A stretch of 64,000 bases of DNA, from assembly GCF_024700885.2 (NCBI RefSeq), contig NZ_CP117016.1; one strand, written 5' to 3'. Of this stretch, positions 30,001 through 33,000 are shown piece by piece. Position 1 is the first letter of the stretch; each line of letters starts with the position of its first letter. A program made the position numbers. This DNA is from Escherichia coli (GTDB lineage Bacteria; Pseudomonadota; Gammaproteobacteria; Enterobacterales; Enterobacteriaceae).

Positions 30001-33000
30001 CAGGCACCAAAAGAGTACGGTGGTGATGCGGCATTGCTGGTGTTGATTGAAGTGGATGAGTGGTTGCCGCCGGAATTACCGTGAATGCTGGCATCGAATG
30101 CCGGATGCGGCGTCGCCTTATCCGGCCGATAAAATGTGATAATTCAATAAATTGTGATTCATTTCTTAGGCCTGATAAGACGCGTCATGAACTGCACCCC
30201 AAATGTTGGACATAATCTGACATCTGAAGGTGCAGTTTATGAAACATTCATTTGAAGTAAAACTTGCCGCTGTAAATCATTACCTGGCTGGTCATGCAGG
30301 CATCATTTCTACGGCAAAACTCTTTCAACTTTCTCACACCAGCCTCTCACACTGGATTAATCTTTTTCTTCTTCACGGTCCTCGGGCACTGGATTGCAGA
30401 CACAAGCGTAGCTATTCTCCTGAAGATAAACTTTGCGTGGTTCTTTATGCTCTCGGGCATTCTGAGTCTCTACCCCGGGTAGCTGCCCGGTTTAATATTC
30501 CCAGCCACAACACGGTTAAAAACTGGATAAAAGGCTACCGCAAATCTGGTAATGAGGCCTTTATCAGGCGCAGGAAGGAGAAAAGCATGACCCGTTCTGA
30601 TGATACCCATGAAAACGAGGCAAACATGACGCCGGAAGAGATGAAGAATGAGCTGCGTTATCTTCGCGCAGAAAATGCATATCTGAAAGCCATGCAGGAG
30701 CATCTCCTGGAAAAAAAGCGCCAGGAGCTGGAGAAAAAACGAAAGTCATCCGGAGCCTGAGGTGCGGACACTGCCAGCCTGACCTGTTAAAGGCTGCAGG
30801 GCTGGCCAGAAGCACGCTGTACTACCAGCTGTCACTGCAGAAGGCTAAGGACAAGTATGCTGATGTGAAACAGCTCATAGCCTCCATCTTCCATGAACAC
30901 CGGGGATGTTATGGGTACCGGCGGATCCATTGTGAGCTTCAGAAAAGAGGTCTTAAGTTCAGTGGCAAAACGGTGCGAAAACTGATGCAACAGCTCGGCC
31001 TGAAGTCTCCTGTGCGCCTGAAGAAATACCGGTCTTACCGGGGAAATATGGGACTCACTGCAGAAAATATCCTTCAGCGGCAGTTCAAAGCGGAAGCTCC
31101 CTGTGAGAAATGGGTGACAGATATCACCGAATTCAGGGCTGGCGGACAAAAACTGTACCTGTCCCCGATACTTGATTTGTTTAACGGGGAAATCGTGGCG
31201 TGGGAAACGGCCTGCAGGCCTACAGAGGAGCTGGTGAAGCGCATGTTAAATAAGGGGCTGGAAAGCCTTGCTGAAGGGGAGAAACCGCTGCTCCACAGTG
31301 ATCAAGGATGGCATTACCGGATAAAAAGTTATCAGTCCGCCCTGGCGGACAGAGGGTTAGTGCAGAGCATGTCGCGCAAGGGCAACTGCCTTGATAATGC
31401 GGTAATGGAGAACTTCTTTGGTCACCTGAAAGAAGAAATGTACTATCGCCGGGACTACAGAAATGTAGAAGAGCTGGAAAATGCCGTTAACGAATACATA
31501 ACTTACTGGAATCAAAAAAGAATAAAACTCAGTCTTGGGGGACTCAGTCCGGTAGAATACCGGACTGAGCATCAAAAAGCCGGTTAACTGAAACTGTCCA
31601 GGTTTTGGGGTTCAGTTCAGTCAGCGTCGCATCAGGCATCAGTGCACAACGACGAGCTACTACAGCATATTCAGTACGTACTGGAATCGACAGGTAGAAT
31701 CAATAGGTTGCCGCGAGGTGGTATCCACGCGAAGCACCATATCGTGAAGCTCTTTGTCGGTAATGGGGTGACGATTTGGTGTTACCGTCACTTTGGCATT
31801 GTCACAGCCCGATGAGGTGAAGGTGAGCATCTGCGACACCCAACGACAATAAGCACCACGATCGTCAGTATCGCCAAATTTGCTACCGTCACACAGTTTG
31901 CCGTCTTTCATCAGGTAGGTGGAGAGCGTTTTTTCAACTATCCCGCCGGTAGACTGGAGAGTTAACGTCTTATCACGCACAACCCGACTTTCATTCCAGG
32001 ACACATCATACGGCTCTAACGGTATAGGTGGGCAAGAAGAGTTACTGACTGTGCGTCCGGAATAGGTTCCTGGACCGGGATCTATACGATCAGAGCTTTC
32101 TCCATGTGTCGATACCAACCACGGGCAGCCATGAACGTTAGTGTCTTCTTTCCAGACTTCAATTTGCATCTCATAACACGTCCAGATCGTCCTTTGCGCT
32201 CGGCTGTCATACTCTGCAAGCCCCGGACAAGATGATTTTGATATCTCTGTCATTGATATGACCTTTAATGATGGTGCAGGACCAGGCCCCGTCCAGCTTT
32301 GCATATCTAACCATCCCATGACCATACCGTAGGTATTTGGTGTCGCATAAACACCGTGATTGACGCTATCGGGGGTAAGAACATCAAGATAATAAACTAC
32401 CTTCGTAGTGTGGCTTGCATACCCTACCGGTGTATACATTGTTGCGACATAAACTGACGCCTGTGCTCCGGTACTGACAATGAGCAATATCAGCAAGCCC
32501 CAAAAATAGCGTATTTTTTTCATTTAAATATACTCAAACGTGGCGGTTAACTGGGCGGTAAAATCACCGGGTGTTACATCACGCCCCTCTTTTGCCTGTA
32601 ACCATGCTCTGAAATTAAGACTGTTATTGCCATCATTCAGCACAAAGGTCACCCCCGTCGTGTTATTAATAGCAACAGCAGTACCATCAGTAGTTTCCAT
32701 ACCAATGCCTACGCCCTGTGCACCGGAGGTATCATCCAGAGCCAGAAATCCCGGTTGCCCACTGTCTTCTGTTCCGGTCAGAGTAACTTTTACGCTGTAC
32801 TGCGCTGGCCCATGGCAATCTTTCAGGCGAAAAACCACCGGTACACGATCGGACTGACCGCGCACCATCAAATCTTTGTGGCTGATATCAGCAAACTGTA
32901 CCTCTGCCAACGTTCCAGCCTGTTCCACCGGAGTACAGGTTTTGCTCATCAGGTTGCCGTAAAAATGCAAATTATTAGCTGCCAGTGCTGAATGACTCAC

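What the first reader, a model, noticed from the sequence alone, without database searches (positions are those of the whole stretch)
30168..31634. IS3-family element (IS1397-like) inserted in the centre of a REP palindrome
A 1432-bp element with about 25-bp terminal inverted repeats, an orfA/orfB pair joined by an A_AAA_AAG -1 frameshift site, and flanking gtca direct repeats lies between smrB and yfcO. Removing the element and one repeat copy reconstitutes an intact REP unit (aggcctgataagacgcgtcagcgtcgcatcaggc), so it integrated into the loop of the palindrome. This targeting and size match what I recall for IS1397, but I cannot confirm identity without a database.
Basis: partly seen in the sequence, partly recalled or inferred. 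Interest (0 to 1): 0.55.

Follow-up and report, generated by a model that had tools for sequence, protein, structure and literature searches.

The report
IS1397 inserted in a REP loop

Summary
The observation and its interpretation both hold. Window 30188-31619 is a 1432-bp IS3-family element. It has 25-bp terminal inverted repeats (21/25, TG...CA ends), orfA, an A_AAA_AAG -1 frameshift site, and an orfB frame encoding an rve/DDE transposase. It is flanked by a 4-bp GTCA duplication.

It is 100% identical to copies that RefSeq annotates as [quoted passage not shown]. It is 98.7% identical to the E. coli CFT073 copy that the literature calls IS1397.

A strain identical over 6.6 kb of flanks has the empty site. 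Its alignments to the two sides of the element overlap by exactly GTCA. The restored sequence folds as a REP/PU hairpin whose 4-nt loop is GTCA.

Eleven independent IS1397 insertions at ten loci in other genomes all lie at the centre of a PU, each with a 3-4-bp duplication.

Twenty-five of 5,426 complete E. coli genomes share this particular insertion, so it is a recent, lineage-specific event. It lies between two convergent genes and disrupts no coding sequence.

Nothing here departs from published IS1397 biology. Novelty: already known. Interest: low.

The parts
29533..30084 (+). smrB (endonuclease SmrB), the upstream neighbour. It is intact and its 3' end faces the insertion.
   Evidence: ORF. 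RefSeq annotation of identical DNA in strain 1190.
30100..30126 (+). First palindromic unit (PU/REP) of the smrB-yfcO BIME, GCCGGATGCGGCGTCGCCTTATCCGGC. It is intact.
   Evidence: Sequence. Inverted repeat I8. Hairpin fold of -10.2 kcal/mol. PU head motif found by regex. Absent, together with the linker, from many strains (70-bp indel).
30127..30167. Linker between the two PUs. It contains AATTCAATAAATTG. The same 14-mer follows PUs at the mgtA-ridA locus and in K-12, with a shorter variant at the pgm locus. From memory it resembles the IHF-binding L motif of BIME-1/RIP elements; this was not tested.
   Evidence: Sequence. Recurrence next to other PUs.
30168..30187 (.). Left half of the second PU (AGGCCTGATAAGACGC) plus the first copy of the target duplication, GTCA (30184-30187).
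30188..31619 (+). IS1397, a complete 1432-bp copy.
   Evidence: 100% identical to annotated IS1397-family copies. 98.7% identical to the CFT073 IS1397. The boundaries are fixed by 11 junction pairs in which the bases outside TGAAC...GTTCA vary.
30188..30212 (+). Left terminal inverted repeat (IRL), 25 bp, starting 5'-TG.
30185..30242 (+). Predicted RNA hairpin in which the outer end of IRL pairs with the ribosome-binding region and ATG of orfA. It is inferred to block translation of transcripts that read in from smrB.
   Evidence: Inverted repeat I4 (14 nt, 93%). RNA fold of -29.9 kcal/mol, z = -5.4, 0 of 200 shuffles as stable. The function is inferred and was not tested.
30239..30760 (+). 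orfA (173 aa): two HTH_28 DNA-binding domains and a C-terminal heptad-rich segment.
   Evidence: Pfam HTH_28 at residues 8-57 and 64-113.
30712..30718 (+). A_AAA_AAG, the -1 programmed ribosomal frameshift site in the orfA zero frame. An AGGAG lies 11 nt upstream (30696-30700).
   Evidence: RefSeq annotates the joined CDS as a 'programmed frameshift' with the same start and stop.
30718..31587 (+). orfB portion of the 449-aa OrfAB fusion transposase: HTH_21 plus the rve catalytic core. Candidate DDE residues are D295, D355 and E391, with K398 at E+7.
   Evidence: (NF033516 IS3 family transposase, 385 bits against a cutoff of 160).
31595..31619 (-). Right terminal inverted repeat (IRR), 25 bp, ending ...CA-3'.
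31620..31637 (.). Second copy of the GTCA duplication (31620-31623) plus the right half of the second PU (GCGTCGCATCAGGC).
31660..32523 (-). StfH/YfcO-family fimbrial adhesin gene (last gene of the yfc chaperone-usher operon). It is intact and convergent with smrB.

Best explanation
The feature is an intact, probably transposition-competent copy of the IS3-family insertion sequence IS1397. It inserted recently into the apical loop of the second palindromic unit (PU/REP) of a two-PU BIME between the convergent genes smrB and yfcO, duplicating the 4-nt loop GTCA. Shown here: the element's anatomy, its identity to annotated and published IS1397 copies, the empty site, the 4-bp duplication, and PU-centre insertion at ten other sites. 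Inferred from established knowledge of the IS3 family: ribosomes translating orfA slip -1 at A_AAA_AAG to make the OrfAB DDE transposase, and the element moves by copy-out/paste-in through a circular intermediate. The PU is chosen by the transposase itself, as reported for IS1397/ISKpn1 (Wilde et al. 2003, as cited in PMC1525189). A stable 5' hairpin that pairs IRL with the orfA start is inferred to keep read-through transcripts from smrB from being translated. The insertion lies between two 3' ends and interrupts no gene, so it is most likely neutral to the host.
For: Anatomy. Family assignment: NCBIfam IS3 family transposase at 385 bits against a cutoff of 160; Pfam HTH_28 x2, HTH_21, rve, rve_2; D-60-D-36-E with K at +7. 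Identity: 100% to copies annotated as IS1397-family transposase with a programmed frameshift; 98.7% over 1432 nt to the CFT073 copy named IS1397 in PMC1525189. Empty site: two genomes match the reconstructed site at 100% over 600 nt. Strain UID2309220033 is 100% identical over 3.3 kb on each side, and the two alignments overlap by exactly 4 nt. The restored PU folds with GTCA as its loop. Targeting: 11 independent insertions at 10 loci, all at the PU centre, with 3-4-bp duplications. The window holds only 3 PUs, so about 2e-4 of its positions are PU loops. Recency: 25 of 5,426 genomes carry this insertion, and 1,051 records carry copies at 99% identity or more. Published IS1397 behaviour: PMC1525189 and PMC3184786.
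Against: No ISfinder reference sequence could be consulted, and the primary IS1397 papers were not held. Identity with the type copy therefore rests on RefSeq naming and on the CFT073 copy. Transposition activity, frameshifting and the circular intermediate were not observed and cannot be tested here. No sigma-70-like promoter passed the simple scan. The structure downstream of the slippery site is not clearly better than in shuffles (z = -2.25), so the frameshift stimulators remain undefined.
Confidence: 0.97

Rival explanations
1. It is a different IS3-family (IS150-group) element, for example an ISKpn1-like or IS150-like IS, that landed in a REP by chance.
For: The RefSeq label says 'IS1397 family', which is not proof of identity with the type copy. 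No ISfinder comparison was possible.
Against: 98.7% full-length identity to the CFT073 copy published as IS1397. All 11 sampled insertions are in PU centres, which is the defining behaviour of IS1397. The chance of hitting a PU loop in this window is about 2e-4.
Confidence: 0.02
2. The REP half-sites are part of the mobile element (REP-like subterminal hairpins carried with it, as in IS200/IS605-type or REPtron systems) rather than a pre-existing target.
For: The long inverted repeat I1 spans 48 nt because the PU arms extend the element's own inverted repeats.
Against: The half-PUs differ in sequence and type from locus to locus, while the IS ends are constant. Intact PUs occupy the empty sites. 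The transposase is a DDE/rve enzyme, not a Y1 HUH enzyme. Target duplications are present.
Confidence: 0.005
3. It is an inactive fossil copy fixed long ago, with no current mobility.
For: No activity assay was done. Decayed copies do exist: CFT073 has a 5-bp deletion and is annotated as a pseudogene, and K-12 has a 65-bp relic.
Against: Both reading frames, the slippery site and both inverted repeats are intact. The copy is 100% identical to copies at other loci in the same and other genomes. The site is polymorphic between strains with 100%-identical flanks. Only 25 of 5,426 genomes have it.
Confidence: 0.05

Closest known systems
IS1397 (IS3 family; Bachellier et al. 1997; Clement et al. 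1999; Wilde et al. 2001-2003, as cited in PMC1525189)
   Same: Size, orfA/orfB with a -1 frameshift, TG...CA inverted repeats, 3-4-bp duplications, insertion at the centre of E. coli PUs/REPs within BIMEs, and 98.7-100% sequence identity to named copies.
   Different: Nothing substantive. This is one more chromosomal copy, at a locus (smrB-yfcO) shared by 25 complete genomes.
ISKpn1 (IS3 family, Klebsiella pneumoniae)
   Same: An IS3-family element that targets palindromic units. The transposase is reported to determine the specificity (PMC1525189).
   Different: It targets K. pneumoniae-type PUs and is a distinct sequence. The element here matches IS1397 copies, not ISKpn1. ISKpn1 itself was not compared.
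IS621 (IS110 family, E. coli)
   Same: Also inserts specifically into E. coli REP sequences (PMC1525189; PMC3184786).
   Different: It belongs to a different family. It recognises a 15-bp sequence and inserts at the 3' side outside the inverted repeat of the REP, not in the loop. It has no orfA/orfB frameshift architecture.
IS911 / IS150 / IS3 (archetypal IS3-family members)
   Same: An A_AAA_AAG-type -1 frameshift joining OrfA (HTH) to OrfB (DDE, rve), TG...CA ends, and short target duplications. Copy-out/paste-in mechanism (established knowledge, not tested here).
   Different: These elements have no REP/PU target specificity.

Membership tests
IS3 family | Length about 1.2-1.55 kb with imperfect terminal inverted repeats ending 5'-TG...CA-3' | tested here: met
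   1432 bp; 25-bp inverted repeats matching at 21/25; TGAAC...GTTCA ends.
IS3 family | Two partly overlapping ORFs, orfA in frame 0 and orfB in frame -1, joined by an A-rich slippery heptamer | tested here: met
   orfA 30239-30760; the -1 frame is open 30652-31587; A_AAA_AAG at 30712-30718 in the zero frame. RefSeq annotates a programmed frameshift. Actual frameshifting was not measured.
IS3 family | OrfAB is a DDE transposase with an N-terminal HTH and a C-terminal rve/integrase core (DD(35)E, with K/R 7 residues after E) | tested here: met
   NF033516 at 385 bits against a cutoff of 160, covering 369/369 model positions. Pfam HTH_28 x2, HTH_21, rve, rve_2. D295, D355, E391, K398, with D2-E spacing of 36. 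Residues were assigned by motif, not by structure.
IS3 family | Short (3-5 bp) target-site duplication | tested here: met
   4 bp (GTCA) here, shown by the 4-nt overlap of the empty-site alignments. 3 or 4 bp at ten other sites.
IS3 family | Copy-out/paste-in transposition via a circular intermediate with a junction promoter | not testable with these tools
   Needs PCR or sequencing of circle junctions.
IS1397 | Nucleotide identity to the reference IS1397 (ISfinder isoform threshold) | tested here: inconclusive
   The reference entry was not available. Proxies were met: 100% identity to RefSeq copies labelled IS1397 family and 98.7% to the CFT073 copy named IS1397 in PMC1525189.
IS1397 | Insertion specifically into the central part of E. 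coli palindromic units (REP) of BIMEs | tested here: met
   This site plus 10 further independent insertions are all at the PU hairpin apex. This agrees with the published CFT073 reconstruction.
REP/PU (BIME) as the target | The empty site is an imperfect GC-rich palindrome of the GCC(G/T)GATG...CTTATC(C/A)GGCCT type, extragenic, and paired with a second PU in the opposite orientation | tested here: met
   The empty site is present in L002. Fold of -12.9 kcal/mol, z = -6.2. Second PU at 30100-30126 in the opposite orientation. Assignment to the Y/Z1/Z2 subtypes is from memory only.

The most novel reading that the evidence does not exclude
In the sample of 11 independent insertions, IRL abuts the 'head' arm (GCC[G/T]GATG) of the PU in 9 cases and the 'tail' arm in 2; this window is one of the 2. 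The same msrQ-zinT PU was hit twice at the same position in opposite orientations. A real orientation bias would mean that the IS1397 transposase reads the asymmetric PU (perhaps as an extruded hairpin) rather than only its symmetric loop. A separate possibility: transcription running out of orfB into the convergent yfcO 3' end could dampen the yfc fimbrial adhesin in the 25 genomes that carry this insertion. Neither is excluded, and neither is supported beyond a small count (two-sided binomial P about 0.07 by my own calculation, not a tool result).
Probability: 0.1. Interest if true: 0.25.

Novelty: already known. Interest (0 to 1): 0.08.

Why it matters
It matters little beyond correct annotation. 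The case is a clean textbook example of REP-targeted IS insertion, with a matched empty site in a strain whose flanks are 100% identical. It could serve as a strain or lineage marker, since only 25 of 5,426 complete genomes carry it. It also shows that IS1397 is still spreading in E. coli: about 1,700 genomes hold full-length copies, many of them 100% identical, and one holds at least 40. It opens no new question about mechanism.

Tried and rejected
1. I tried to read the primary IS1397 papers (PMC94167, PMC95333, PMC169884, PMC135288). None is held. The published properties are therefore taken from citing papers and, where marked, from memory.

2. The sigma-70 promoter scan of 30000-31800 found no site, so the transposase promoter is undefined.

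3. The RNA fold downstream of the slippery heptamer gave a stem-loop starting right after the site, but only z = -2.25. This is not good enough to claim a frameshift-stimulating structure.

4. The Rfam gathering scan of the whole window found only tRNA-Arg and nothing in the element.

5. I considered a 3-bp duplication (TCA) with a 1433-bp element ending in G, which would restore the same empty site. I rejected it because the base following ...GTTCA varies among the 11 junctions, so the element ends at CA and the duplication here is 4 bp.

6. I considered that the REP halves belong to the element. I rejected this on the basis of the empty sites and the locus-specific PU sequences.

Full report
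**Observation**

- The element spans 30188-31619 and is 1432 bp. It begins TGAACTGCACCCCAAATGTTGGACA, and the reverse complement of its other end is TGAACTGAACCCCAAAACCTGGACA. This gives 25-bp terminal inverted repeats matching at 21/25, with TG...CA termini.
- The IRL 25-mer is unique in the window, with 0 matches expected by chance.
- orfA (ATG 30239 to the stop at 30760, 173 aa) is followed by a long -1 frame, open from 30652 to the stop at 31587.
- The heptamer A_AAA_AAG sits at 30712-30718 with AAA and AAG as zero-frame codons. Slipping there gives a 449-aa OrfAB.
- GTCA flanks the element on both sides, at 30184-30187 and 31620-31623.
- Two small corrections apply. The right REP arm runs to 31637, not 31634. 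The inverted repeats carry four mismatches.

**What the protein is**

- OrfAB scores 385 bits against NCBIfam NF033516 "IS3 family transposase". The curated cutoff is 160, and the match covers the full 369-position model.
- Pfam finds two HTH_28 domains in the OrfA part. In the OrfB part it finds HTH_21, rve and rve_2.
- Motif inspection gives D295, D355 and E391 with a 36-residue D-E spacing, and K398 seven residues after E. This is the IS3-family DD(35)E-K signature. The assignment is by motif and rests on established knowledge, not on a structure.

**Which IS it is**

- The 1432 bp are 100% identical to copies in many complete E. coli genomes that RefSeq annotates as "IS3-like element IS1397 family transposase", as a joined CDS noted "programmed frameshift". 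The start and stop of that CDS match those I derived.
- No ISfinder copy was available and the primary papers are not held. I therefore tied the name to the literature another way.
- Tobes & Pareja 2006 (PMC1525189) name two IS1397 copies in CFT073. Their Additional file 13 gives the reconstructed REP around one of them.
- I located that copy between yaeF and nlpE in NC_004431.1. It aligns to the window element over all 1432 nt at 98.7% identity, with 13 mismatches and one 5-bp deletion. RefSeq annotates it as a frameshifted pseudogene.

**Empty site and duplication**

- A 600-nt query made by deleting the element and one GTCA matches two genomes at 100% over its full length. In both it lies between smrB and the StfH/YfcO adhesin gene.
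- In one of them, strain UID2309220033, 6.6 kb around the site is 100% identical to the window. The two alignment blocks end at window 30187 and begin at window 31620. They overlap by exactly four query bases. This is direct proof of a 4-bp GTCA duplication and of a very recent event.
- The alternative of a 3-bp TCA duplication with a 1433-bp element is excluded. The base after ...GTTCA varies among the other junctions.
- The restored sequence TTAGGCCTGATAAGACGCGTCAGCGTCGCATCAGGCATC folds as a hairpin of 7+5 pairs with an internal AA/GC mismatch. Its loop is GTCA (-12.9 kcal/mol, z = -6.2, 0 of 200 shuffles as stable). The IS therefore entered the loop and duplicated it.
- A second PU in the opposite orientation lies at 30100-30126. 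It is separated from the first by a 41-bp linker containing AATTCAATAAATTG, so the target is one PU of a two-PU BIME.
- From memory, the GCCTGATG-type PU is a Z type, the GCCGGATG-type is a Y type, and the linker resembles the IHF-binding L motif of BIME-1. I did not test these labels.

**Is REP targeting real for this element?**

- I fetched IS copies from other loci and lineages at 97.1-100% identity.
- The loci were rrf-mobB, mgtA-ridA, msrQ-zinT (twice, in opposite orientations and in different IS sublineages), cysE-trmL, ygcP-ygcQ, yphA-yphB, ruvB-znuB, pgm-proximal and hybG-yghU.
- In every case the IS ends are TGAACTGC...TCAGTTCA and there is a 3- or 4-bp duplication. Removing the IS restores a PU hairpin with the duplication at its apex.
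- With the window, that makes 11 independent insertions at 10 loci, all at PU centres.
- The window itself holds only three PUs, so about 2e-4 of its positions are PU-loop positions. Chance is not a credible explanation.
- This matches the published behaviour of IS1397 (PMC1525189; PMC3184786).

**Population context**

- Full-length copies (at least 80% of the query) occur in 1,707 of 5,426 complete genomes. They are almost always chromosomal: 7,606 of 7,613 places. The median is 1 place per genome that has any, and one genome has at least 40.
- The specific smrB-IS junction is present in only 25 genomes.
- The element lies between the 3' ends of two convergent genes and interrupts no coding sequence.

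**Mechanism**

Shown here: the anatomy, the intact reading frames, the duplication, and the choice of target.

Inferred from established IS3-family knowledge:

- -1 ribosomal frameshifting at A_AAA_AAG yields the OrfAB transposase.
- OrfAB makes a circular copy-out intermediate that integrates with a 3-4-bp staggered cut.
- Specificity for PUs resides in the transposase (Wilde et al. 2003, as summarised in PMC1525189).

An AGGAG lies 11 nt upstream of the slippery site, and a stem-loop is predicted just downstream. That fold is only marginally better than shuffles (z = -2.25), so I make no claim about frameshift stimulators.

The first bases of IRL pair with the ribosome-binding region and ATG of orfA in a strong predicted RNA hairpin (30185-30242, -29.9 kcal/mol, z = -5.4; I4). 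By analogy with other ISs, this would silence translation of transcripts reading in from smrB. This is inference.

No sigma-70-type promoter passed the simple scan.

**Comparison with what is known, and verdict**

All testable defining features of the IS3 family and of IS1397 were met. The only untested items are direct comparison with the ISfinder reference and the biochemical steps. The element is not ISKpn1, which targets Klebsiella PUs. It is not IS621, which belongs to the IS110 family and inserts beside the palindrome rather than in it. The finding is correct, well observed and already known. It deserves a low interest score.

Noticed in passing
L013:601-665 (E. coli K-12 MG1655 NZ_CP010445.1 4424042-4424106), between yhhI (ISEc1-family transposase) and yhhJ: K-12, usually described as lacking IS1397, carries a 65-bp relic of the IS1397 right end (62/65 identical, ending ...GTCAGTTCA). 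It abuts a half PU (TAAACGCCTTATCCGGCCTAA) followed by an AATTCAATAAATTG linker. The left part of the relic ends next to the ISEc1-family gene. About 1,780 genomes have only a short match; every short match listed (14 at 65 bp, 1 at 56 bp) is to the IS right end and carries no annotation.
   Followed up: partly
window 30097-30169 vs L011:228-325 and L012:230-327: The smrB-yfcO intergenic BIME is polymorphic. At least 11 listed strains (two of them aligned) lack a 70-bp block comprising the first PU and the linker, and keep a single PU with loop TTCA instead of GTCA.
   Followed up: partly
L005:401-1832 and L016:401-1832 (msrQ-zinT intergenic PU): The same PU was hit at the same position (duplication AGC / GCT) by IS1397 copies of different sublineages (100% and 99.1% identity to the window copy) in opposite orientations. 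This indicates independent insertions and a reusable hot spot.
   Followed up: partly
window 48959-49033 and 49034-64000: tRNA-Arg(CCT) (argW) is not followed by a prophage here. It is followed by the csc sucrose genes, dsdA, emrY and evgS. Strain 1190 is 99.98-100% identical up to the last base of the tRNA, but carries an IntS integrase and a P22-like prophage at that point.
   Followed up: partly
This suggests a lineage with a large IS1397 expansion. The record was not identified.
   Followed up: no
window 31543-31569: A perfect 12-bp inverted repeat with a 3-nt loop (CTCAGTCCGGTA gaa TACCGGACTGAG) lies inside the 3' end of orfB, just upstream of IRR (I7). The K-12 relic begins within its loop, just upstream of the right arm. 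Its function is unknown.
   Followed up: no
L021:1543-2969 (E. coli CFT073, yaeF-nlpE): The CFT073 IS1397 copy shown in the literature is 1427 bp, with a 5-bp deletion, and is annotated as a frameshifted pseudogene. It is a decayed copy, unlike the window's.
   Followed up: yes
window 11973-12006 (-), between dedD and cvpA: This is the only other PU/REP in the 64-kb window found by the motif scan (GCCTGATGCGACG...CTTATCAGGCCT). It is not occupied by an IS.
   Followed up: no
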